Shown: piece by piece, positions 1 through 7,767 of the stretch | Layout: the number at the start of each line of letters is the position of its first letter | How positions within the stretch are numbered: position 1 is the first letter of the stretch | Assembly: GCA_044355355.1 (NCBI GenBank) | Contig: JBIKYI010000096.1 | Location: forward strand, 1 to 7,767 | Direction: 5' to 3' | DNA from: Limnothrix sp. | GTDB taxonomy: Bacteria; Cyanobacteriota; Cyanobacteriia; Cyanobacteriales; MRBY01 | Length of the DNA stretch: 7,767 nucleotides | Notes under the pieces: generated by a model | Told to the model about the DNA's origin: nothing | The model's database searches: none | The model's input: the letters and a program-made list of their open reading frames with translations, nothing else | Program-made: the position numbers and the translations under genes

Positions 1-79
1 ATTTCTTATTGTTTTACTTAACATCAGAATATCCTTATGAGTCCCTCTTCAGAAAGACCCTAGCTGTTGCACTTCAAAT

Positions 80-262
80 TTGAATTGGCGATCCTTTTTT
101 GATGAATGTTCTTTTTCAGGTGCAAATCTAACAGGAGTAGATCTGTCACATACTCGAATGTACTTATCTAATTGTTACAATGTGTTTATTGATCAAGACA
201 CAATTATTCCAGAGACAATTAAGCAAAGTTGTGTCGTTTATGAACCAATCATCTTGTCTTAG
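80..262 (+). CDS. small ORF with a pentapeptide-repeat-like segment (hypothetical; possibly a remnant of a pentapeptide-repeat protein)
   Basis: 60-codon ORF from TTG 80. The translation has about 5 consecutive 5-residue units fitting the A(D/N)LXX-type pattern (DECSF SGANL TGVDL SHTRM YLSNC). An in-frame stop lies at 38-40, so it cannot extend upstream. The region is AT-rich (about 35% GC), there is no ATG start and I saw no clear SD. Confidence 0.3.
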   Translation: MNWRSFFDECSFSGANLTGVDLSHTRMYLSNCYNVFIDQDTIIPETIKQSCVVYEPIILS

Positions 263-295
263 AAATTCATCAGAGATGGATAAGGTTAATTCGAT

Positions 296-925
296 TTAGT
301 GATGAATCCAATGACGTAGTTCTCGAATTAATGAATTTTCTCCTTGGTGACTACGTTTACCCAGAAGCTCTAAAAGTTTAGCTTGATTGAGAATGGGTAA
401 GACTATAGATTGAGTTTGAGCTTGATAAGCTTCACTTTCTAACACGTAGATAGAAAGCTGCTTTCCATCAAATCGCCATACTTCTTTAATTCCTAAACTC
501 GCGTAAATTTTTAACCGATCCAATGAACTACTGGTGATATCGATCTCGATCGCCAAATCTGGTGGCGGGTCAACCGTCAAATCAATCTGAGTTTTGCCCC
601 GCACCTGAGCTTCAGACGTAATGTAATAACACTCGTCCGGTTCCAAACCCCGTTGCAGATCCTCCCGACTCCAAGTCGTCGAACCCAAACTATAAATCTC
701 TAAGCCTAATTCCTCCGTCGTCGCCTCAACAATCCGCCCCAACAAACGCTTATTCGCCTCCTGTTCTGGTAACGGAGGCATAATCTCTAACCATTGATGG
801 TCATAAGTTAATCGCTTATTTGGCTTCTCCGCTAAATCCCACACCAGAGCCTGATAAGTTGACCAACTCACCCCTTGGAGTAGGACTTTCCCCTCACGAA
901 TTGGTATTGGCGTTGCGACCATCAC
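296..925 (-). CDS. Uma2 family (DUF820) PD-(D/E)xK putative endonuclease
   Basis: 209-codon ORF. The translation carries the family core ...PPDLAIEIDITSSSLDRLKIYASLGIKEVWRFD... and the N-terminal ...VSWSTYQALV...LTYDHQWLEIMPP... segment typical of this cyanobacteria-expanded family. The GTG at 925 is followed immediately by ATG (920-922), so either could be the start. A GAGG lies 6-9 nt upstream on the minus strand. Confidence 0.9.
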   Translation of the reverse strand: MMVATPIPIREGKVLLQGVSWSTYQALVWDLAEKPNKRLTYDHQWLEIMPPLPEQEANKRLLGRIVEATTEELGLEIYSLGSTTWSREDLQRGLEPDECYYITSEAQVRGKTQIDLTVDPPPDLAIEIDITSSSLDRLKIYASLGIKEVWRFDGKQLSIYVLESEAYQAQTQSIVLPILNQAKLLELLGKRSHQGENSLIRELRHWIHH

Positions 926-984
926 CCCTGACCTCAGTTCCTTTTGTCCCTATGATACTCACACCAACATTTCAAAGATGCAGG

Positions 985-992
985 GCGATCGC
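985..992. repeat. HIP1 palindrome GCGATCGC
   Basis: exact octamer (extended GGCGATCGCC), intergenic. Confidence 0.95.
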
Positions 993-1119
993 CATCGGGC
1001 ATCATCCACTTTACCTATGGCATTGATTTAAAGCTCAAACTCTTTTGTTGCCATATGTACGTTTTTTTGCAGTCACCCATGTTAACTTTAATGAATACTC
1101 TGATAGATACTCTTTCTTG

Positions 1120-1127
1120 GCGATCGC
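1120..1127. repeat. HIP1 palindrome GCGATCGC
   Basis: exact octamer (GGCGATCGCC), intergenic. Confidence 0.95.
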
Positions 1128-1219
1128 CTAAATCTCTAGAACGCTCTTGAGGCAAGGGATTGGGAAAAGTATATTGTTCGGTTGTTTCTGGTTTTACTTA
1201 TCTTTGCGGGAGTGGGGAT

Positions 1220-2128
1220 ATGAATTTGACGAATGCAAATTGGCAAAAGACGGCGTTGAGTTGGGAATATCATAAGGCTGCAAATCCGCGTTTATCAGAG
1301 GTTCCCATCCGAGCTTTTCCGGCTAGTCTCCATGAGTCGGGGGAAACGAGAATTATTCCTCTGGATCTCTCGGTGGAGTTGGAAACTGCCTATGCTGCCA
1401 CCACTCCTAATTTGTTGGCTAATTTTATTCGCATTCAGACGGGGGAAAAGATCGCGGCGATCGCCCCAGCTAGTTCCGAGGTGTTCTATGTCATGCGAGG
1501 CTCCGGCTACACCGAGACGGAATATGGCACTTTAGCCTGGAAAAAGGGCGATTCCTTTACCCTACCGATGAATTCCGGTGTCACCCACCATGCCGATGAA
1601 GATGCGGCGCTCTATTGGGTACATGATGCGCCCATGTTGGCGTACTTGGGAGTGAAGCCCACGGCTCCTCGCTTTGAACCGGCTTTTTATTCTGGGGAAT
1701 ATCTCACGGGTGAAATTGAGCGCATTCGGGAGGAGGGCATTCGGCGCAATCTCAACCGTAATGGCGTAATTCTCGGTAACCCCAACAGTGAGGCAACCCG
1801 CACGGCAACCCATACCATGTGGTCTTTGTATAATCTTGTGCCGCCCCATTCTTCCCAGAAGCCCCACCGCCATAATTCGATCGCCCTAGATTTGGCTGTA
1901 TCGGCGAAGGAGAATACCTACACGCTCATCGGTAAGTCGGTCGATGGGGAGGGTAATATTATTAACCCGATCAAAATGAGTTGGGAACCCAATAGCGTTT
2001 TCGTTACGCCGCCGAGTCTCTGGCATTCCCACCATAATGAGTCCGATGAAGATGCCTATGTGTTTCCGGTGCAGGATGCGGGGATGCAGATCTATATGCG
2101 TACTTTGGATATTCAGTTTGCGAAATAG
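1220..2128 (+). CDS. bicupin metalloprotein (cupin superfamily, gentisate-dioxygenase-like metal motif in the C-terminal barrel)
   Basis: ATG at 1220 is preceded by GGAG (1209-1212) at 7-nt spacing. The ORF-track TTG at 1160 adds 20 Cys/Phe-rich residues with no SD. Two cupin-like halves are visible. The C-terminal half has HRHNSIALDL...G...WHSHHN (His-x-His plus a distal His). The N-terminal half (SSEVFYVMRGSG...GDSFTLP) lacks the His ligands. The exact substrate or activity is not inferable. Confidence 0.85.
   Translation: MNLTNANWQKTALSWEYHKAANPRLSEVPIRAFPASLHESGETRIIPLDLSVELETAYAATTPNLLANFIRIQTGEKIAAIAPASSEVFYVMRGSGYTETEYGTLAWKKGDSFTLPMNSGVTHHADEDAALYWVHDAPMLAYLGVKPTAPRFEPAFYSGEYLTGEIERIREEGIRRNLNRNGVILGNPNSEATRTATHTMWSLYNLVPPHSSQKPHRHNSIALDLAVSAKENTYTLIGKSVDGEGNIINPIKMSWEPNSVFVTPPSLWHSHHNESDEDAYVFPVQDAGMQIYMRTLDIQFAK
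1457..1464. repeat. HIP1 palindrome GCGATCGC
   Basis: exact octamer inside the bicupin CDS. Confidence 0.95.
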
Positions 2129-2164
2129 GTGCCAAGTCGCTTCTCCTTCACAGCGTGATTTGAG

Positions 2165-2172
2165 GCGATCGC
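2165..2172. repeat. HIP1 palindrome GCGATCGC
   Basis: exact octamer (GGCGATCGCC), 37 nt after the bicupin stop. Confidence 0.95.
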
Positions 2173-2296
2173 CGATATTTGATCCAGAAATGAAGACTCA
2201 AGTACTGACTTTTAGTACGCACCTTTAACAACGGTTGCAGCGTCAATTCATTGTTGATCAAACGCAGACGATCACCATCATAAAATTACCTGAAGT

Positions 2297-2366
2297 GGGA
2301 TTAAATCATTACATTTTTAAGTATGTCTAAGGCATGTTTAAAGATTAGTCATTTAATCCCTTTTTT
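2297..2366 (+). terminator. long AT-rich hairpin followed by T6 (candidate intrinsic terminator or 3' end of a small RNA)
   Basis: GGGATTAAAT (2297-2306) pairs perfectly with ATTTAATCCC (2351-2360). Four further pairs form after one C-C mismatch. The loop region is about 36-44 nt, and TTTTTTG follows directly at 2361-2367. A 10-bp perfect inverted repeat is unlikely by chance in a 600-bp gap. The stem is AT-rich and the loop is large, so terminator function is uncertain. Confidence 0.35.
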
Positions 2367-2398
2367 GTGTGGGTTCAACCGACAATTCTGTCAAAATC

Positions 2399-2447
2399 GC
2401 TTTTTGTTTCAAGTTTTTTGCAAGTTTGTAAAGTTTTTCAGGTTTTT
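2399..2447 (+). promoter_or_regulatory. phased T-tracts / triple AAGTTT motif (candidate intrinsically curved DNA or regulator sites)
   Basis: T-runs start at 2401, 2414, 2425, 2434 and 2443 (spacing 13, 11, 9, 9). AAGTTT occurs at 2411, 2422 and 2431. The element lies about 290-340 nt upstream of ATG 2737. Confidence 0.2.
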
Positions 2448-2463
2448 GAATTGAGATCATCAA

Positions 2464-2471
2464 GCGATCGC
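2464..2471. repeat. HIP1 palindrome GCGATCGC
   Basis: exact octamer, intergenic. Confidence 0.95.
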
Positions 2472-2670
2472 CCAATAGTATCCAGAGATTGATTCGATAT
2501 TTAACAGATATTGCATAAGTATTAAACAAAGATTTCGTCTTTCTTCATCTAGCCACCCAGGATCAAAAAGTCAGCATACAATGCCAGTAAAGGCATTCTG
2601 ACTGGCAGTTAATAATGTAAAAAGCATCACCTTGGGCGTAGGGTCGGTCTTCCGTCGTCCCCAAGCATCG

Positions 2671-2678
2671 GCGATCGC
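2671..2678. repeat. HIP1 palindrome GCGATCGC
   Basis: exact octamer (GGCGATCGCC), leader of the nucleotidyltransferase gene. Confidence 0.95.
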
Positions 2679-2736
2679 CAATCCCATTAACGCCGCCAGC
2701 AAGCTTGGTTCACAAAGCAAGAGAATTTTTATTTTT

Positions 2737-5277
2737 ATGCGTGCAGTACTGATGGCGGGTGGTTCCGGGACAAGATTACGTCCGCTGACCTGTGATTTGC
2801 CGAAACCCATGGTTCCCGTCTTGAACCGACCGATTGCAGAGCATATTATTAATCTTCTCAAACGCCACCACATCACCGAAGTTATTGCCACCCTCCACTA
2901 TGTCCCCGATGCCATGCGGGATTACTTCCAAGACGGTCGAGATTTTGGCATCAAAATGCACTACGCCATCGAAGAAGAGCAACCCCTCGGCACCGCAGGC
3001 TGCGTCAAAAATGTCGAAGAACTCCTCACCGATACCTTCCTCGTGATCAGTGGCGATAGTATCACCGATTTTGACCTCTCGGCGGCGATCGCCTTCCACC
3101 GCGAAAAACAAGCCAAAGCCACCCTCGTCCTCACCCGCGTGCCCAACCCTGTCGAATTTGGTGTCGTCATCACCGACGAAGATCACCGCATCTGCCGCTT
3201 CCTCGAAAAACCCTCCACCAGCGAAATCTTCTCCGATACCGTCAATACCGGAACCTACATCCTCGAACCAGAAGTCCTGCAATACCTACCCGTTAACGAA
3301 GAAAGCGACTTTTCCAAAGACCTATTCCCCCTCCTCCTTGAGCGGGGCGAACCCATGTTTGGCTACATTGCCGAAGGCTATTGGTGCGATGTCGGTCACC
3401 TCGATGCCTACCGCAAAGCCCAATACGATGCCCTCGCCCGTAAAGTCAAAGTCGAATATGCCTACGAAGAGCGATCGCCCAACATTTGGATCGGCAAAAA
3501 TACCTTTATCGACGACACCGCCGAACTCCACCCCCCACTCCTGATCGGCGATAACTGTCGCATCGGAGCCTACGTCCGCATCGAACCCGGCACCGTCATC
3601 GGCGATAACGTCACCATCGGCGCCTATGCCGACCTCAAACGCCCCATCATCTGGAACGGCGTAACCCTCGGCGAAGAAGCCCACCTCAGAGGCTGCACCA
3701 TCGTCCGGGGCAGCAGAATCGATCGCCGCGCCCACATCCTCGAAGGAGCCGTCATCGGTAGCCTATCCACCGTCGAAGAAGAAGCCCAGATCGGCACAGG
3801 CGTAAGAGTTTGGCCGAACAAACGCGTCGAAGCCGGAGCCATCCTCAACATGAATCTCATCTGGGGAAACACCGCCCAACGCAACCTCTTCGGACAACGT
3901 GGTGTATCCGGACTCGCCAACATCGACATCACCCCAGAATTTGCCGTCAAACTCGGCGCATCCTACGGCGCAACCCTCCGCATCGGTTCCTCAGTAATCG
4001 TCTCCCGCGATCAGCGGAGCGTCTCCCGCATGGTCAGCCGTTCCCTCATTGCCGGCTTAATGTCCGCAGGCATCAACATCCAAAACCTACAAGCCACAGC
4101 CATTCCCATCGCCCGAACCATGGCAACAACTCTTGATGTCGAAGGCGGCATCCATGTCCGTCTGCACCCTGAGCGCCAGGATCACCTCCTCATCGAATTT
4201 ATCGATGCCCAAGGCATTAATATCTCCAAAGCCAAAGAGAAAAAAATTGAAGGCGCTTACTTCAAGGAAGAATTACGCCGCGTCCCCATCAACGAAATTG
4301 GCGATATGTCCGTCCCGGCTCAGGTCGTCGAAGGTTACAGCCAAAGATTTGAGCAATATCTCAACGTTGGGGCGCTCACCAACAGCGGCTCTAAGGTGGT
4401 CATTGATTATGCCTATGCTGTTGCTAATGCGGTTTTACCTCGCCTGTTGTCTAAATTCGATTGTGATGCGATCGTCCTCAATGCCAGTTTGAAACAAACC
4501 TCCCTAGTGGGTCAGGAAAAGGAATTACTGCTGCTGCAACTGGGTCATGTGGTGGAAGCATTACGCGCCAGTATGGGGGTACAGGTGTCAGCCAATGGGG
4601 AACAATTAACCCTGGTTGATGAGACTGGGCAGGCAATCCAAGGGGAACAACTCACGGCTTTAATGGTGAATATTTTGCTCACGGCAAATCCCCGGCGAGC
4701 GGTCGTTGTGCCTGTTTATGCCTCTAGTGCGGTGGAGCAGATTGCCCGTCGCCATGATGGTCAGGTCATTAGAACAAAGGCTAATCCGACGGCATTGATG
4801 GAGGCTTCCCGCAACCATCCAAATGTGGTGTTGGGGGGCAGTGGGGATATGGGTTTCATTTTCCCGGAGCTACATCCTGGGTTTGATGCGATGTTCACGA
4901 TCGCCAAGTTGATCGAAATGCTGACGATTCAGGAGCGATCGCTGGGACAGATTCGTGAGGAGTTACCGACGGTACACCACAAATCTCACACCATGCGCTG
5001 TCCTTGGCGGGTCAAGGGTTCTCTGATGCGTCACCTTGTGGAGATCCATAATAATGACCACATTGAATTGATTGATGGGGTCAAGATTATCGATCCGCTG
5101 TCTGATAATTGGGTGTTGATCCTCCCGGATGCGGGGGAACCGCTCATTCATATTTTCGTGAACAGCAATAGCCATGAATGGGCAGAACGCAATCTTTGGG
5201 AATATCGCCAACGGGTGCAAACGTTTATCTCCCAACATCAAAATGGGACTATTTCGGAGTTTGATGATCGGCTGTAG
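2737..5277 (+). CDS. sugar-1-phosphate nucleotidyltransferase (mannose-1-phosphate guanylyltransferase-like) fused to a left-handed beta-helix and a phosphohexomutase (PGM/PMM)-like C-terminal module
   Basis: 846 codons from ATG 2737. The N-terminus MRAVLMAGGSGTRLRPLT...LPKPMVPV is the nucleotidyltransferase G-loop. Hexapeptide repeats (IGDNCRIGAYVRIEPGTVIGDNVTIGAYADL...) span about 3544-3850. The C-terminal ~450 aa align by eye to alpha-D-phosphohexomutase domains I-IV. The architecture matches my recollection of ~840-aa cyanobacterial proteins annotated as mannose-1-phosphate guanylyltransferase. The ORF-track start at 2632 (TTG) adds 35 residues ahead of the G-loop and is unlikely. Confidence 0.9.
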   Translation: MRAVLMAGGSGTRLRPLTCDLPKPMVPVLNRPIAEHIINLLKRHHITEVIATLHYVPDAMRDYFQDGRDFGIKMHYAIEEEQPLGTAGCVKNVEELLTDTFLVISGDSITDFDLSAAIAFHREKQAKATLVLTRVPNPVEFGVVITDEDHRICRFLEKPSTSEIFSDTVNTGTYILEPEVLQYLPVNEESDFSKDLFPLLLERGEPMFGYIAEGYWCDVGHLDAYRKAQYDALARKVKVEYAYEERSPNIWIGKNTFIDDTAELHPPLLIGDNCRIGAYVRIEPGTVIGDNVTIGAYADLKRPIIWNGVTLGEEAHLRGCTIVRGSRIDRRAHILEGAVIGSLSTVEEEAQIGTGVRVWPNKRVEAGAILNMNLIWGNTAQRNLFGQRGVSGLANIDITPEFAVKLGASYGATLRIGSSVIVSRDQRSVSRMVSRSLIAGLMSAGINIQNLQATAIPIARTMATTLDVEGGIHVRLHPERQDHLLIEFIDAQGINISKAKEKKIEGAYFKEELRRVPINEIGDMSVPAQVVEGYSQRFEQYLNVGALTNSGSKVVIDYAYAVANAVLPRLLSKFDCDAIVLNASLKQTSLVGQEKELLLLQLGHVVEALRASMGVQVSANGEQLTLVDETGQAIQGEQLTALMVNILLTANPRRAVVVPVYASSAVEQIARRHDGQVIRTKANPTALMEASRNHPNVVLGGSGDMGFIFPELHPGFDAMFTIAKLIEMLTIQERSLGQIREELPTVHHKSHTMRCPWRVKGSLMRHLVEIHNNDHIELIDGVKIIDPLSDNWVLILPDAGEPLIHIFVNSNSHEWAERNLWEYRQRVQTFISQHQNGTISEFDDRL
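3085..3092. repeat. HIP1 palindrome GCGATCGC
   Basis: exact octamer inside CDS 2737-5277. Confidence 0.95.
3471..3478. repeat. HIP1 palindrome GCGATCGC
   Basis: exact octamer inside CDS 2737-5277. Confidence 0.95.
4935..4942. repeat. HIP1 palindrome GCGATCGC
   Basis: exact octamer inside CDS 2737-5277. Confidence 0.95.
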
Positions 5278-5279
5278 GG

Positions 5280-5287
5280 GCGATCGC
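5280..5287. repeat. HIP1 palindrome GCGATCGC
   Basis: exact octamer (GGCGATCGCC), 3 nt after stop 5277. Confidence 0.95.
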
Positions 5288-5319
5288 CTGTCGTTTAATC
5301 TCCCTCGAAAAATCCGTTG

Positions 5320-5325
5320 CATAAT
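5320..5325 (+). promoter_or_regulatory. candidate -10 hexamer CATAAT upstream of the 127-codon ORF
   Basis: CATAAT matches TATAAT at 5/6 positions and ends 30 nt upstream of ATG 5356, with no good -35. I saw no terminator between the stop at 5277 and 5356, so co-transcription with the upstream gene is equally possible. Confidence 0.2.
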
Positions 5326-5355
5326 AGTGTTAATCCGCCGTTTTGACGAAAAGAT

Positions 5356-5739
5356 ATGGATCCGATCACTTTGTTAGTTGCCGTCCTCGGAATTTATGGA
5401 TCTGGAATTGTCGCGAAGGCGGGGGAAGATACTTTTGATCACTGTCGCCAGTTGTTAACGGCTAAACTCAAGGGTTCGGCTACGGGTCAGGCTTTGGCGG
5501 CGGGAACGGAGATTGATCCAGAACAGGCGGTGATTGATGTGGAGGCGATCGCCCTTGATCCAGAAGTGCAAGTTCTTACGGAAAAAATCCAGCAATTGAT
5601 CGCCCAAAATGAGGATTTACAACGGCAATTCAATGAGGCGATTCGGCAACAACCGCAGGTAATTCATAAAAATTGGCAGGGGATTAATGCGGAGACGGGC
5701 AGCAATGTCACGGTTCATAATCCGACGTTTAACTTTTGA
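5356..5739 (+). CDS. hypothetical 127-aa protein: N-terminal hydrophobic Gly-rich helix, acidic repeat, coiled-coil-like helix, N/Q/G/T-rich tail (candidate effector/partner of the downstream NLR-like NTPase)
   Basis: ATG 5356 is the first possible start, since an in-frame TGA lies at 5344. Visible segments are ITLLVAVLGIYGSGIVA (aa 4-20), IDPEQAVIDVEAIA/LDPEVQVLTEKIQQ (a 14-aa repeat), EKIQQLIAQNEDLQRQFNEAIRQQ, and the tail NWQGINAETGSNVTVHNPTFNF. G-rich codon style matches the 5' part of the downstream gene. I recognise no family. Confidence 0.65.
   Translation: MDPITLLVAVLGIYGSGIVAKAGEDTFDHCRQLLTAKLKGSATGQALAAGTEIDPEQAVIDVEAIALDPEVQVLTEKIQQLIAQNEDLQRQFNEAIRQQPQVIHKNWQGINAETGSNVTVHNPTFNF
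5545..5552. repeat. HIP1 palindrome GCGATCGC
   Basis: exact octamer inside the 127-codon ORF; it is the last HIP1 in the window. Confidence 0.95.
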
Positions 5740-5790
5740 CTACAGTCGTCTGAATCGGTAGCGCGGACAAAGTTAGAGGCTCCGAATAAT

Positions 5791-7767
5791 TTGCGACAAC
5801 GGACGGTTCCCTATTTCGTCGGGCGGGAAGAGGAACTTAAAAGTTTGCATGGTTTCCTGTCGGATGGGGAATCGGTGGCAATTTCGGCGGTGTCGGGCAT
5901 GGGTGGCATCGGCAAATCTGAACTGGCGTTGCAATATATCTATCGTTCGCAAGCAGCTTATCCAGATGGGATTCTTTGGCTGGATGCGACATCGGCAACT
6001 TTTGCGGAGGAGATTATCGGGTTTGCGGTGGGGACATTAAAGCTGTCTGTACCGGAGGATTTACCGCCAGTGCAAAAGGTGAGGAGCGTTTGGGCGCATT
6101 GGCTGGGGACGGATCCGGTGTTGGTGGTGGTGGACAATATCAATCAGCCAGAGGATTTTACGCGGGTACAGGAATTTTTGCCCTACGGTTATCAACGGTT
6201 TCGGGTGTTGGTGACGAGTCGGGTCAAGTTGGCTGGATTGCGGGAATTGCCGTTGGATTTGTTGCCGCTAAAACAGGCGGTTAAATTGTTAGCACGATTA
6301 GCAAAGGCATCTGAGCGCAAAAATTGGGATCGGAAAGCTGCAAAAAATCTTTGTAAACGGTTGGGGCGGTTGCCGTTGGCGGTGGCGTTGGTGGGGAGCT
6401 ATCTGGGGCTAGATCTGAATTTGGGTTTGGCTGAAATGACGGCATTGCTAGAGAAAAAAGGGCTGGATGCGCGGTGTTTGGACAAGCCTGATCCGACGGT
6501 GGCAAAGCGGGGAGTAAAAGCAGCGTTTGATTTGTCGTGGGAGCATCTGACGGCGGAAACGCAACGGTTGGCTTGTGTGCTGGCGATGTTTGCCCGTGCG
6601 CCTATTGAGTGGCGATTGGTGGAAAATACGTTTATTTCGACGGATTCGGAGGAAGCCCCACAATTTGACCGCTTTGATTTGACGGATTGGCGGCAGGAGT
6701 TGCTGCGTTATTCGTTGTTACAGGGGGTGGAATTAGCGGAACAGGGGCGATCTGGTTATCTGTTGCATCCGTTGATCTGGGAATATCTGCGCCAGAAAAT
6801 ACCGACAGTGCTGGATGAGCAAATACGGCGATCGATGGTGAAGGCGATCATTACAGAAGCAGAAACTATTGAATACAACGCGCCCCTTGCGGACTACGAA
6901 AAAGTGCGTCTCTCTATTCCACACATAACCGAGTTAGCGGAAGAGTGGACAGAATTATTGAATCAAGATGATGTGATTACGCCTTCTACAAGAATTGCCT
7001 TTTATTATCTTTGCCGGTTATTTGACATTGAAGGAAGCGAATATTGGTTTCAGAAGACTATCGCTTTAGCAAAAAAACTATTACCCAAAAACCATATGGA
7101 TATTGTTGGAGCACTCAATAATTTAGCTGAGTTCTATAGTAAGCAAGGAAGATATCAAAGAGCTTTATCTATATATTCAGAATGCTTTGAATTTAAGAAT
7201 TTAAATAAAAAACCTGCTTTGCTTGCTATCTTACAGAATAACCAAGCATTAGTTCATGTAGGACTTGGGGAGTTTTCTAAAGCTGAAGTCTTGTACAGGA
7301 AAGCTATGGAGATTGAGCGAAAACATTTATCTGAAGACGATCCAAGTCTTGCGAATAGCTTAATCAATTTGGCTGATTTACTGTCTAAGCATTTAGAACA
7401 AACTATTGAAGCAGAGTCTTTATACTCAGAAGCACTAGAAATAGCCCGTAAGTCATTACCTAAAAATCATCCAAGTCTTGCAAATATTATTTTTAAAGTT
7501 GCAGAATTTTATGAATCTAAAGGAGACTTTTTAATTGCAGAAACTCATTTCTTAGAAGCTATAGTGATTGCACGTGAATCATTTTCTAGGAATCATCCGA
7601 ATTTTGCTGCGATGCTTAATAATGTGGCAATGATGTATATCAAGCTAAACAAAATATCGAAAGCTAAGCCCTTACTACAGGAATCGCTTCGTATTATTCG
7701 ACTACGGTATGGCGATGGACATCATTTGACTCTAACTATTCTTGAAAATTACGAGGCAATTCTCTAA
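5791..7767 (+). CDS. NB-ARC (AP-ATPase clade STAND NTPase) protein with C-terminal TPR array; NLR-like / Avs-like
   Basis: 658 codons from TTG 5791, with GAGG at 5776-5779. NB-ARC motifs read from the translation are FVGREEEL, Walker A GMGGIGKS (5896-5919), Walker B VLVVVD (6118-6135), RVLVTSR, GLPLA-type GRLPLAV (6364-6384) and MHD-like LHPLIWEY (6763-6786). From about 7050 there are about 5 kinesin-light-chain-type TPR units (e.g. ALNNLAEFYSKQGRYQRALSIY, PSLANSLINLADLL, PSLANIIFKVAEFYESKGDF, AAMLNNVAMMYIKLNKISKA). The first in-frame ATG (5899) lies inside the P-loop, so a non-ATG start or read-through is required. The stop codon is the last triplet of the window. Confidence 0.9.
   Translation: MRQRTVPYFVGREEELKSLHGFLSDGESVAISAVSGMGGIGKSELALQYIYRSQAAYPDGILWLDATSATFAEEIIGFAVGTLKLSVPEDLPPVQKVRSVWAHWLGTDPVLVVVDNINQPEDFTRVQEFLPYGYQRFRVLVTSRVKLAGLRELPLDLLPLKQAVKLLARLAKASERKNWDRKAAKNLCKRLGRLPLAVALVGSYLGLDLNLGLAEMTALLEKKGLDARCLDKPDPTVAKRGVKAAFDLSWEHLTAETQRLACVLAMFARAPIEWRLVENTFISTDSEEAPQFDRFDLTDWRQELLRYSLLQGVELAEQGRSGYLLHPLIWEYLRQKIPTVLDEQIRRSMVKAIITEAETIEYNAPLADYEKVRLSIPHITELAEEWTELLNQDDVITPSTRIAFYYLCRLFDIEGSEYWFQKTIALAKKLLPKNHMDIVGALNNLAEFYSKQGRYQRALSIYSECFEFKNLNKKPALLAILQNNQALVHVGLGEFSKAEVLYRKAMEIERKHLSEDDPSLANSLINLADLLSKHLEQTIEAESLYSEALEIARKSLPKNHPSLANIIFKVAEFYESKGDFLIAETHFLEAIVIARESFSRNHPNFAAMLNNVAMMYIKLNKISKAKPLLQESLRIIRLRYGDGHHLTLTILENYEAIL

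What the first reader, a model, noticed from the sequence alone, without database searches (positions are those of the whole stretch)
6900..7767. Abrupt GC and synonymous-codon break inside the NLR gene at the NB-ARC / TPR boundary (possible sensor-module swap or chimera)
My hand counts of 60-nt lines give about 62% GC at 6061-6120, 50% at 6781-6840, 47% at 6841-6900 and 43% at 6901-6960. GC then falls to 35% at 6961-7020 and 33% at 7021-7140, and stays low to the stop. Synonymous choices flip as well. Leu goes from TTG/CTG to TTA/CTT/CTA, Ala from GCG/GCC to GCT/GCA, Pro from CCG to CCT/CCA, Gly from GGG/GGC to GGA, and Arg from mostly CGG to AGA/AGG/CGT. The strong G-excess of the 5' part also disappears (G 28 versus C 9 at 6361-6420). 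Because synonymous sites change, amino-acid composition alone cannot explain the break. The reading frame is intact across the junction, which coincides with the nucleotide-binding module / repeat-sensor boundary. This is what exchange of the ligand-sensing module with a gene from a lower-GC background would produce.
Basis: seen in the sequence. Interest (0 to 1): 0.6.

Follow-up and report, generated by a model that had tools for sequence, protein, structure and literature searches.

The report
Swapped sensor module in cyanobacterial NLR-like gene
A cyanobacterial immune-type sensor gene (NB-ARC ATPase plus TPR repeats) had its ligand-sensing tail replaced by a very divergent, AT-rich version of the same module. 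A stub of the old tail survives just downstream, which makes this a clear natural case of receptor-module exchange.

Summary
Inside ORF 5791-7767, GC falls from 0.52 to 0.33 and GC3 from 0.55 to 0.25. The best-fitting break is at nt 6949, and it is the strongest intragenic GC3 break among about 1000 long ORFs of this 3.2-Mb assembly. Amino-acid composition predicts almost none of the drop.

The module-swap reading is supported:
- Against the nearest same-genus orthologue, the 5' part has dS 0.42 and 83% amino-acid identity. From about nt 6910 synonymous sites are saturated and identity is 43%.
- Similarity returns at contig position 7797 (86.7% nt, dS 0.29), just past the window's end.
- That downstream stretch holds the last ~38 codons of the ancestral gene, out of frame and with a premature TAG, right behind the new module's own terminal repeat and stop codon.

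An assembly chimera is very unlikely. At least four other assemblies with readable DNA carry the same junctions, one with its own SNP tract.

No donor was found anywhere; the best non-self match is 34-46%.

One qualification: all orthologues share a low-GC3 linker, and two have moderately low-GC3 TPR arrays.

The anatomy matches the C-terminal displacement known from Rhs and T6SS loci, here on a STAND sensor. Read mapping was unavailable.

The parts
5356..5739 (+). Upstream 127-aa ORF. This is context only: a candidate partner or effector of the sensor, in the same frame as the NB-ARC ORF and separated from it by a single TGA.
   Evidence: ORF list. No Pfam, NCBIfam or PADLOC hit. The in-frame stop and the conserved ~45 nt after it are seen in 4 same-genus loci.
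5791..6909 (+). Resident (native-lineage) 5' part of the gene. It covers the NB-ARC NTPase (aa 13-205: P-loop GMGGIGKS, Walker B VLVVVDN), the helical and winged-helix part (DUF7779, aa 249-336) and the hinge.
   Evidence: Pfam NB-ARC scores 42.8 bits against a cut-off of 23.5. Amino-acid identity to orthologue L002 is 83%, with dS 0.42 and dN 0.10. GC3 is 0.546. In the tree its end branch is 0.064, inside the genus clade with 100/98 support.
6779..6909 (+). Conserved hinge, encoding ...MVKAIITEAETIEYNAPLADYEKVR. This is the last block of high nucleotide identity before the break and the proposed homologous anchor for recombination.
   Evidence: Identity to L002 is 85-98% in the 60-nt windows here. 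It is one of the few blocks still alignable by blastn to the distant orthologues L003 and L004. In the AF2 model a low-confidence interdomain loop at aa 361-367 lies here.
6910..6985 (+). 5' crossover interval. Identity to the orthologue drops from 6910. The best-fitting GC3 break is at 6949. A 13-nt identity island, GATGTGATTACGC, lies at 6970-6982.
   Evidence: Nucleotide alignment and change-point fit with support interval 6850-6982.
6910..7767 (+). Imported AT-rich sensor module. It comprises a linker, a TPR array with 4 readily recognisable 42-aa units that are only 23% alike, its own C-terminal capping repeat, and its own TAA stop (7765-7767). Beyond the window, in contig C7 coordinates, 7768-7796 is unalignable (presumed donor 3' flank). 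7797-7915 is the relic of the ancestral last TPR and cap (L*LEALAIFEENLELDHPNPRTVRANYESFLEQKGANP), out of frame with a premature TAG.
   Evidence: GC is 0.34 and GC3 is 0.248 against 0.454 expected. Pfam TPR_12 E = 5.6e-39 and TPR_10 E = 1.6e-31. AF2 pLDDT is 82-94 over aa 410-658. Against L002, pS is 0.78 (saturated) and dN is 0.51. The tree end branch is 2.33. Relic: 86.7% nt identity to the L002 3' end, dS 0.29, dN 0.11.

Best explanation
The gene is a real mosaic made by recombination. An incoming DNA fragment carried the 3' half of a divergent homologue of the same NB-ARC-TPR family: linker, TPR array, capping repeat, stop codon and about 30 nt of 3' flank. The fragment was AT-rich, with GC3 about 0.24.

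It paired with the resident gene at the conserved hinge just after the NTPase/winged-helix part, with the crossover at about nt 6910-6985. At its other end it joined non-homologously, or by microhomology, inside the resident gene's last TPR, at about contig position 7797.

The resident TPR array (about 745 nt) was deleted. The resident gene's last ~38 codons were pushed downstream as a dead relic. The result is an intact 658-aa protein with the old nucleotide-binding switch and a new ligand-binding TPR solenoid.

What is shown: both junctions, the relic, the saturated divergence of the module against unsaturated flanks, the composition shift, and the presence of the structure in independent assemblies.

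What is inferred: the one-sided-homology mechanism (homology-facilitated illegitimate recombination, as proposed for Rhs and T6SS C-terminal displacement), the foreign low-GC source, the recency of the event (the relic is no more diverged than the flanks), and that the swap changed what the sensor recognises.
For: 1. Junctions. Identity to orthologue L002 is 85-98% up to about 6910, 55-67% over 6930-7108, and about 42-70% up to 7670. It resumes at 83-87% over 7797-7919.

2. Double cap. The module ends with its own capping repeat and TAA. The ancestral cap follows about 30 nt later, out of frame and with a TAC-to-TAG change. It is 83% identical to the L002 C-terminus, against 31% for the module's own cap.

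3. Divergence. For the N part dS is 0.42 and dN 0.10. For the relic dS is 0.29 and dN 0.11. For the module pS is 0.78 (saturated) and dN 0.51.

4. Amino-acid identity. In the N part WIN-L002 is 0.83. In the C part WIN is 0.40-0.44 to all 7 family members compared, while those members are 0.53-0.80 to each other.

5. Trees. The end branch is 0.064 for the N part and 2.33 for the C part. The N part rejects the C-part topology (AU p = 0.004).

6. Composition. GC3 is 0.248 against 0.454 expected (z = -7.2). This is the top-ranked intragenic break in the genome.

7. Not an artefact. The sequence, including both junctions and the relic, is 100% identical in JGI 3300034355, ENA ERZ27272080 (k141 contig, 12.3 kb) and Logan SRR10955660. 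In JGI 3300044974 it is 99.6% identical, with all 12 SNPs in one 73-nt tract far from the junctions. Gene tables for JGI 3300059473 and NCBI GCA_041443025.1 also list the 658-aa gene in the same neighbourhood, but no DNA could be read for those.

8. The module is an intact, confidently folded TPR solenoid.

9. The repeats differ in kind. The L002 array has 5 units that are 79% alike (homogenised). The window's units are 23% alike.
Against: - No donor was found. The best non-self match to the module is 34-46% identity. I searched 5.8 billion and 1.84 billion protein sets, metagenome and genome contig scans, 400 cyanobacterial genomes, plasmids and phages.
- The C-part tree cannot reject the window's module being sister to L002 (AU p = 0.21). 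Tree topology alone therefore does not prove a foreign origin. The case rests on branch length, composition and the duplicated cap.
- Orthologues also show a low-GC3 linker, and two of the three examined show moderately low-GC3 TPR arrays. Part of the drop is a family trait.
- The 3' microhomology and the HFIR mechanism cannot be checked without the donor sequence.
Confidence: 0.85

Rival explanations
1. In-place runaway divergence. The resident TPR array was never replaced. It evolved very fast under AT-biased mutation and/or diversifying selection, after a small tandem duplication of the terminal repeat.
For: The C-part tree groups the module with the genus clade (98/96) and does not reject a sister relation to L002 (AU p = 0.21). 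Close allele pairs in the family diverge faster in the C part than in the N part (0.80 against 0.93, and 0.73 against 0.92). No donor was found.
Against: Both boundaries are sharp while the flanks sit at dS 0.3-0.4. The module has a complete cap and stop, followed by unalignable bases and then a second, ancestral-type cap. Synonymous sites are saturated only inside the tract. The GC3 shift of 0.3 would need near-complete turnover of silent sites in about 860 nt with none next door.
Confidence: 0.06
2. Old, stable family feature. The low-GC sensor half is ancestral to this orthologue group, and nothing special happened in this lineage.
For: All three examined orthologues have a low-GC3 linker (0.24-0.27, z about -3). 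L003 and L004 have TPR GC3 of 0.36 and 0.33 (z -3.1 and -4.2).
Against: The closest orthologue, L002, has a normal TPR GC3 (0.46). The window's module is 40-44% identical to all orthologues, whereas they are 53-80% identical to each other. The relic of an ancestral-type tail lies downstream. This reading explains the linker, not the array.
Confidence: 0.05
3. Assembly or binning chimera that joins two organisms at shared repeat sequence.
For: The genome is a fragmented metagenome-type assembly (579 contigs, 84% complete). TPR genes are repeat-rich. The break lies near a contig end.
Against: The same sequence, with both junctions and the relic, occurs in contigs from at least four other assemblies with readable DNA, made by different pipelines. 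One carries private SNPs. L014 continues 4.4 kb further into syntenic genes. Just past the junction the identity to the orthologue is only about 60%, so two organisms would not share the long exact overlap that a k = 141 assembly needs (the k value is my reading of the contig name). A chimera would also need two switches within 900 nt.
Confidence: 0.02
4. Programmed diversification: a diversity-generating retroelement or a silent-cassette gene-conversion system acting on the sensor.
For: DGRs are reported to target putative antigen sensors of conflict systems in multicellular bacteria (PMC10907252, found). One population variant shows a short conversion tract in the same gene.
Against: The assembled genome holds no second copy of any part of 6901-7767, so there is no template repeat or silent cassette. 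The diverged tract is about 860 nt with indels and its own stop, which is unlike the adenine-specific changes of a DGR in a short variable region (my knowledge). No recombinase or reverse transcriptase appears among the called neighbours in the 12.3-kb contig.
Confidence: 0.01

Closest known systems
C-terminal displacement of Rhs genes and of T6SS effector modules (Jackson et al. 2009, PMC2935791; Kirchberger et al. 2017, PMC5361080)
   Same: A constant 5' core is shared with relatives. A conserved block sits at the junction. The variable 3' tip has different base composition and arrives from outside. The old 3' end is shifted downstream as a relic. One-sided homology (homology-facilitated illegitimate recombination) is the proposed mechanism.
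   Different: The gene is a cytoplasmic STAND/NLR-like sensor, not a secreted toxin. The swapped part is a ligand-binding TPR array that is homologous to the one it replaced. No immunity gene travels with it. There is only one short relic, not an array of orphan tips.
Sensor-module sharing among bacterial STAND/Avs immune receptors (PMC12803255) and domain reshuffling in NTP-dependent conflict systems of multicellular bacteria (PMC7159879)
   Same: An NTPase switch with a C-terminal TPR sensor. The same sensor type is found across different STAND clades, which implies module exchange over evolution.
   Different: Those are family-level inferences from phylogeny. Here a single recent event is seen at nucleotide resolution with both junctions. 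This protein matches no PADLOC Avs model, and a defence role is untested.
STAND ATPase with TPR sensor from Pyrococcus horikoshii, PDB 6mfv (organism from memory, not given by the tool); also Apaf-1 and plant NRC/ZAR1 NLRs
   Same: 6mfv is the best full-length fold match (E = 2.9e-12, TM 0.54-0.55). The NOD part also matches Apaf-1 and plant NLRs. The module matches kinesin-light-chain-type TPR domains at 27-32% identity.
   Different: Sequence identity is only 14-19%. There is no N-terminal effector domain on this polypeptide.
Bell-domain/BASS - NLR gene pairs of filamentous bacteria (Dyrka, Saupe et al., bioRxiv 10.1101/2020.01.06.895854)
   Same: A small upstream ORF with a hydrophobic N-terminus and a G/N/Q-rich tail lies directly before an NB-ARC-TPR gene in a cyanobacterium.
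   Different: The NB-ARC ORF has no matching N-terminal motif, and the two ORFs are separated only by an in-frame stop. I did not test this further.

Membership tests
NB-ARC / STAND NTPase with TPR sensor (NLR-like) | P-loop (GxxxxGK[ST]) and Walker B (hhhhD) in an NB-ARC domain scoring above the Pfam threshold | tested here: met
   GMGGIGKS at aa 36-43 and VLVVVDN at aa 110-116 (sequence). PF00931 scores 42.8 bits against a cut-off of 23.5, over aa 13-205.
NB-ARC / STAND NTPase with TPR sensor (NLR-like) | C-terminal repeat (TPR) sensor and overall NOD-TPR fold | tested here: met
   TPR_12 E = 5.6e-39 (5 stretches) and TPR_10 E = 1.6e-31. AF2 model mean pLDDT is 78.6. The top PDB match is 6mfv, a STAND-TPR protein, with TM 0.54.
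NB-ARC / STAND NTPase with TPR sensor (NLR-like) | N-terminal effector or adaptor domain on the same polypeptide | tested here: not met
   The NB-ARC domain starts at aa 13 of the ORF. Only a separate upstream 127-aa ORF is present.
Characterised anti-phage STAND systems (Avs / bNACHT) | Match to a defence-system model | tested here: not met
   PADLOC gives only a generic TPR hit (E = 1.6e-5) and PDC-M71B (E = 6.9e-5). No Avs or NLR model matches.
FxSxx-COOH system TPR protein (NF040586) | Score above the NCBIfam cut-off | tested here: not met
   186.8 bits against a cut-off of 300, and only the N part (aa 7-380) matches.
C-terminal displacement (Rhs-type module replacement) | Conserved 5' core shared with relatives, and a sharp junction at a conserved block | tested here: met
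   The core is 82.5% nt and 83% aa identical to L002, and identity collapses at about 6910 right after the conserved hinge.
C-terminal displacement (Rhs-type module replacement) | New tip with different composition and much deeper divergence than the core | tested here: met
   GC3 is 0.248 against 0.546. pS is 0.78 (saturated), against dS 0.42 for the core.
C-terminal displacement (Rhs-type module replacement) | Old 3' end retained downstream of the new stop | tested here: met
   Contig positions 7797-7915 are 86.7% identical to the last ~38 codons of L002, out of frame and with a TAG.
C-terminal displacement (Rhs-type module replacement) | Arrays of several orphan tips, or an accompanying immunity gene | tested here: not met
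   There is one relic only. The downstream genes in L014 are a 37-aa ORF, a 130-aa ORF, DUF1350, GDPD and an ABC ATPase.
Horizontal (xenologous) replacement | An identifiable donor lineage with a closely similar module | tested here: not met
   The best non-self identity is 34-46% in all collections searched. There is no paralogue donor in the assembly.
Diversity-generating retroelement target | A template repeat matching the variable region, and a nearby reverse transcriptase | tested here: not met
   blastn of 6901-7767 against the whole assembly finds only itself. No RT appears among the called neighbours. The assembly is 84% complete, so absence is not proven.
Bell/BASS - NLR amyloid-signalling pair | Upstream effector with a C-terminal amyloid motif that is repeated at the NLR N-terminus | tested here: inconclusive
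   The upstream ORF ends ...GINAETGSNVTVHNPTFNF. The NB-ARC ORF has no such N-terminal motif, and no Pfam model hits. I ran no dedicated motif model.

The most novel reading that the evidence does not exclude
The swap may not be a one-off. STAND/NLR-like sensors of this lineage may be served by a circulating pool of AT-rich sensor cassettes that are plugged in at conserved hinges by one-sided homologous recombination. That would be an Rhs-like 'C-terminal displacement' system for immune receptors.

Hints:
- Three of the 12 NB-ARC/NACHT genes in this assembly rank 1st, 5th and 10th of 997 long ORFs for intragenic GC3 breaks, each with the low-GC3 part at the sensor end.
- All orthologues keep a low-GC3 linker at the same boundary.
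- The N-part and C-part trees of the orthologues disagree on the branching of L003 and L004.
Probability: 0.25. Interest if true: 0.65.

Novelty: new member of a known kind. Interest (0 to 1): 0.42.

Why it matters
Exchange of sensor modules is assumed to drive the diversity of NLR/STAND immune receptors in bacteria, fungi and plants. It is usually inferred from family-level phylogenies.

Here a single event is preserved at nucleotide resolution. Both junctions can be read, the incoming module brought its own stop codon, and a stub of the displaced tail remains. The crossover sits in a conserved hinge at the structural boundary between the nucleotide-binding switch and the TPR solenoid.

That gives a natural design rule for where such receptors tolerate module exchange. 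It also gives a matched pair for testing whether specificity resides in the TPR array: this gene and the unswapped 'Limnothrix sp.' orthologue, which are 83% identical in the switch part and 43% in the sensor.

The case also shows that the Rhs-style displacement mechanism is not confined to toxin genes.

Tried and rejected
I substituted independent public assemblies.
- Donor search. All of the following were negative, with at most 46% identity: a word-indexed search of 5.8 billion proteins restricted to aa 400-658; a full HMMER scan of 1.84 billion representatives; pattern scans of metagenome and genome contigs; 400 genomes of the phylum; plasmids and phages by tblastn; and the assembly itself.
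- Intermediate alleles. The N-part search found nothing between 82% and 100% identity, so the event cannot be dated more finely.
- Topology tests. The C part does not reject a sister relation between the window's module and L002 (p = 0.21) and only weakly disfavours the N-part topology (p = 0.064). I therefore do not use tree placement as evidence of foreign origin.
- Amino-acid composition as the cause of the GC3 drop. Rejected: it predicts 0.487 falling to 0.454, against the observed 0.546 falling to 0.248.
- DGR or silent cassette. Rejected for lack of any second copy.
- Extending the pattern to the two other STAND genes with breaks. The C55 NACHT-GUN4 gene has only a truncated close orthologue. 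The C343 NB-ARC-Ig gene has none in the genus. The generalisation stays untested. The Mann-Whitney p = 0.03 for STAND genes is post hoc.
Full report
**Setting.** The window is bases 1-7767 of a 7903-nt contig (C7). The assembly has 579 contigs, totals 3.22 Mb, is 46.6% GC and is 84% complete. The nearest relatives of the gene carry the names 'Limnothrix sp.' (a MAG) and [Leptolyngbya] sp. PCC 7376, so the organism is a filamentous-type cyanobacterium of that genus.

ORF 5791-7767 encodes 658 aa:
- NB-ARC at aa 13-205, with P-loop GMGGIGKS and Walker B VLVVVDN.
- A DUF7779 helical/winged-helix part at aa 249-336.
- A TPR_12/TPR_10 array from about aa 430 to the end.

An AlphaFold2 model built on 30 family members has mean pLDDT 78.6. 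Its best full-length match in the PDB is 6mfv, a STAND ATPase with a TPR sensor (TM 0.54). The nucleotide-binding part also matches Apaf-1 and plant NLRs. There is no effector domain on this polypeptide. No PADLOC defence model matches beyond a generic TPR hit, and NCBIfam's FxSxx_TPR model scores below its cut-off. 'NLR-like STAND sensor' is therefore the right label, and a defence role is plausible but untested.

**The observation.** The codon flips are also real. TTG/CTG changes to TTA/CTT/CTA, GCG to GCT/GCA, GGG to GGA, and CGG to AGA/AGG/CGT.

GC3 falls from about 0.55 to about 0.25. The best two-segment fit places the break at nt 6949, with support interval 6850-6982 and LLR 31. This is the largest intragenic GC3 break of all 703 ORFs of at least 400 codons, and of all 997 ORFs of at least 350 codons, in the assembly.

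Amino-acid composition combined with genome-wide codon use predicts only a fall from 0.487 to 0.454. The observed values are 0.546 and 0.248 (z = -7.2), and only 1.7% of 270-codon windows in the genome's ORFs are as AT-rich at third positions.

**What lies beyond the window.** The contig continues 136 nt past the stop codon. In another frame those bases read L*LEALAIFEENLELDHPNPRTVRANYESFLEQK. This is the C-terminal capping repeat of the same-genus orthologues. L002 ends ...LYLEALAICEESLGLDHPNTRQVRANYERFLEQKGANP, and P0275 ends ...LEALAIFEESLGLDHPNTRKVRANYEYFLEQKGANP.

The longer public contig L014 is identical to C7 over all 7903 nt. It shows the relic running on to the ancestral stop codon (...GANP, TGA). 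The gene therefore has two caps. One belongs to the AT-rich module, in frame and followed by TAA. About 30 nt later comes an ancestral-type cap, out of frame and carrying a TAC-to-TAG change.

**Junctions and divergence.** I aligned the region to the closest orthologue, L002 (genome G005, 'Limnothrix sp.').
- Nucleotide identity is 85-98% in most windows up to about 6909.
- It drops at 6910 to 55-67% over 6930-7108, and to about 42-70% through the TPR array.
- It vanishes over 7673-7792.
- It returns at 83-87% from 7797 to 7919.

Nei-Gojobori estimates against L002:

| Region | dS | dN |
|---|---|---|
| 5' part | 0.42 | 0.10 |
| 38-codon relic | 0.29 | 0.11 |
| Module | saturated (pS 0.78) | 0.51 |

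At protein level the 5' part is 83% identical to L002. The module is 40-44% identical to every one of seven family members, and those members are 53-80% identical to each other in that part.

In trees the window's end branch is 0.064 for the 5' part, inside the genus clade with 100/98 support. For the module it is 2.33, with deviant composition.

The repeat arrays also differ in kind. L002 has five 42-aa units that are 79% alike, which indicates homogenisation. The window's recognisable units are 23% alike.

The module is nevertheless intact. It has 272 codons without a stop in 33%-GC DNA, strong TPR profile hits, and pLDDT 82-94.

Public assemblies served as a substitute.
- Contigs from JGI 3300034355, ENA ERZ27272080 (12.3 kb) and Logan SRR10955660 are 100% identical to C7 across both junctions and the relic.
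- JGI 3300044974 is 99.6% identical. All 12 of its differences lie in one 73-nt tract (6234-6306) far from the junctions.
- JGI 3300059473 and NCBI GCA_041443025.1 list the same 658-aa gene in the same neighbourhood, but no DNA could be read for them.

A chimera would need two template switches within 900 nt, reproduced by different assemblers. It would also need them at places where the putative partner sequences are only about 60% alike just past the junction. I rate this at about 2%.

The orthologues are not flat in composition. All three examined have a low-GC3 linker of about 50 codons just after the hinge (GC3 0.24-0.27 against about 0.45 expected, z about -3). The TPR arrays of L003 and L004 are moderately depleted (0.36 and 0.33). 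L002's array is normal (0.46). The window's array is 0.23.

So a GC dip at this boundary is an old family trait. The window's long, deep drop is a lineage-specific addition, and the relic rules out 'nothing happened here'.

**Limits of the phylogenetic evidence.** AU tests on the module's alignment do not reject the window's module being sister to L002 (p = 0.21). The 5' part does reject the module's topology (p = 0.004). With a branch of 2.3 substitutions per site, placement is unreliable. I therefore rest the case on the sharp junctions, the saturated silent sites between unsaturated flanks, the composition, and above all the duplicated cap.

The module does group with this orthologue family (98/96) and shares its linker motifs (DVIT..., EYWFQK). 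The donor gene was therefore most likely a distant member of the same family.

**Donor.** None was found. The best non-self identities are:
- 34% in the word-indexed 5.8-billion-protein set.
- At most 46% among 1.84 billion representatives scanned exhaustively.
- 27-34% in the metagenome and genome contig scans.
- 36% in 400 genomes of the phylum.
- At most 34% in plasmids and 25% in phages.
- No paralogue in the assembly itself.

About 5% of this genome's long ORFs have similarly low GC3. AT-rich accessory DNA is therefore a normal component of this genome and a plausible source pool. That link is inference.

**Mechanism.** The 5' junction lies in the most conserved block of the gene, encoding ...MVKAIITEAETIEYNAPLADYEKVR-SIPHI. 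This block is nearly invariant even in orthologues whose 5' parts are only about 50% identical. In the model it sits right after a low-confidence interdomain loop (aa 361-367), at the start of the helix that leads into the TPR solenoid.

The 3' junction has no extended homology. The incoming piece carries its own stop and about 30 unalignable bases, then abuts the resident last TPR at ...CTCTA....

One homologous end and one illegitimate end is the signature of homology-facilitated illegitimate recombination. The overall anatomy is a constant core, a conserved junction block, a compositionally different imported tip, and the old tip shifted downstream. That is the 'C-terminal displacement' described for rhs genes and proposed for T6SS effector modules (PMC2935791, PMC5361080, PMC3240628).

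The relic is no more diverged from L002 than the resident 5' part, and the module's codon use has not shifted toward the host's. Both suggest that the event is recent relative to the split from the L002 lineage. This is inference.

The new TPR array presumably changes ligand specificity. That follows from what is known of STAND receptors with TPR sensors (PMC12803255). It was not tested here.

**Wider hints.** The gene is mosaic at smaller scales too. Identity to L002 swings between 60% and 98% within the 5' part, and one population variant differs only by a 73-nt tract.

Among the genome's strongest intragenic GC3 breaks are two more STAND genes, both with the low-GC3 part at the sensor end:
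- C55, NACHT plus GUN4-like, GC3 0.50|0.25, rank 5.
- C343, NB-ARC plus Ig-like repeats, GC3 0.41|0.22, rank 10.

This was noticed after the ranking was made, and the Mann-Whitney p = 0.03 is descriptive only. I could not extend the orthologue test to these genes for lack of full-length relatives.

**Verdict.** A chimera is excluded for practical purposes, and the donor is unknown. This is a clean, well-anchored example of a known evolutionary process, seen in a gene class where it has mostly been inferred rather than observed. It is not a new kind of system.

Noticed in passing
window 5737-5793, and loci L002-L004: The 127-aa upstream ORF and the NB-ARC ORF are in the same frame, separated by one stop codon (TGA here, TGA/TGA/TAG in three same-genus loci). 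The ~45 nt after the stop (CAGTCGTCTGAATCGGTAGCGCGGACAAAGTT...) are more conserved than the coding flanks. The NB-ARC ORF has only a TTG start.
   Followed up: partly
window 1-90, and the ends of more than 100 contigs of G000: The first ~90 nt of the contig are a high-copy dispersed repeat. It is 95-100% identical and nearly always lies within about 40 nt of a contig end, in more than 100 contigs. L014 carries an inverted copy 12.1 kb away. It probably is the end of an IS/MITE-type element that fragments the assembly.
   Followed up: partly
window 6234-6306, compared with L016: The JGI 3300044974 variant differs from the window by 12 substitutions. All of them lie within 73 nt of the NB-ARC/helical part, with none elsewhere in 2839 nt. 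This is the signature of a short recombination or conversion tract from a third allele.
   Followed up: partly
window 5791-6909 and 2850-4390: Third-position G/C skew is extreme and opposite in two neighbouring plus-strand genes. It is +0.70 (G-ending codons) in the NB-ARC part and -0.76 (C-ending codons) in a 1.5-kb block of the nucleotidyltransferase-mutase fusion gene. The genome's 1st-99th percentile range is -0.59 to +0.60. This is unexplained.
   Followed up: partly
G000:C55:2154-4607 and G000:C343:1-3162: Two other STAND NTPase genes, NACHT plus GUN4-like and NB-ARC plus Ig-like repeats, have strong intragenic GC3 breaks with the low-GC3 part at the C-terminal sensor end (0.50|0.25 and 0.41|0.22). 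They rank 5th and 10th of 997 ORFs.
   Followed up: partly
G000:C190:8747-13096, C530:4574-7705 and C93:4115-6262: Other genes with large intragenic GC3 breaks include an NRPS module (break before the T-TE part), a Big_1/extensin-like surface protein, and an MscS-like channel (low-GC3 N part). Mosaic genes seem common in this genome.
   Followed up: no
L002 (G005:C98), orthologue TPR array: The orthologue's five 42-aa TPR units are 79% identical to each other. This indicates concerted evolution (intragenic conversion) of the repeats. The array has normal GC3, unlike the arrays of L003, L004 and the window.
   Followed up: partly
contig C7 / L014, position about 7912 (just beyond the window): The ancestral stop codon overlaps the ATG of a small downstream ORF (ATGA). 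The orthologue L002 shows the same arrangement. In the window's lineage the new stop lies about 146 nt upstream, so any translational coupling to that ORF would be lost.
   Followed up: no
window 985-5552: All 11 exact HIP1 sites (GCGATCGC) lie between 985 and 5552. None lies in the NB-ARC-TPR gene, in either half.
   Followed up: partly
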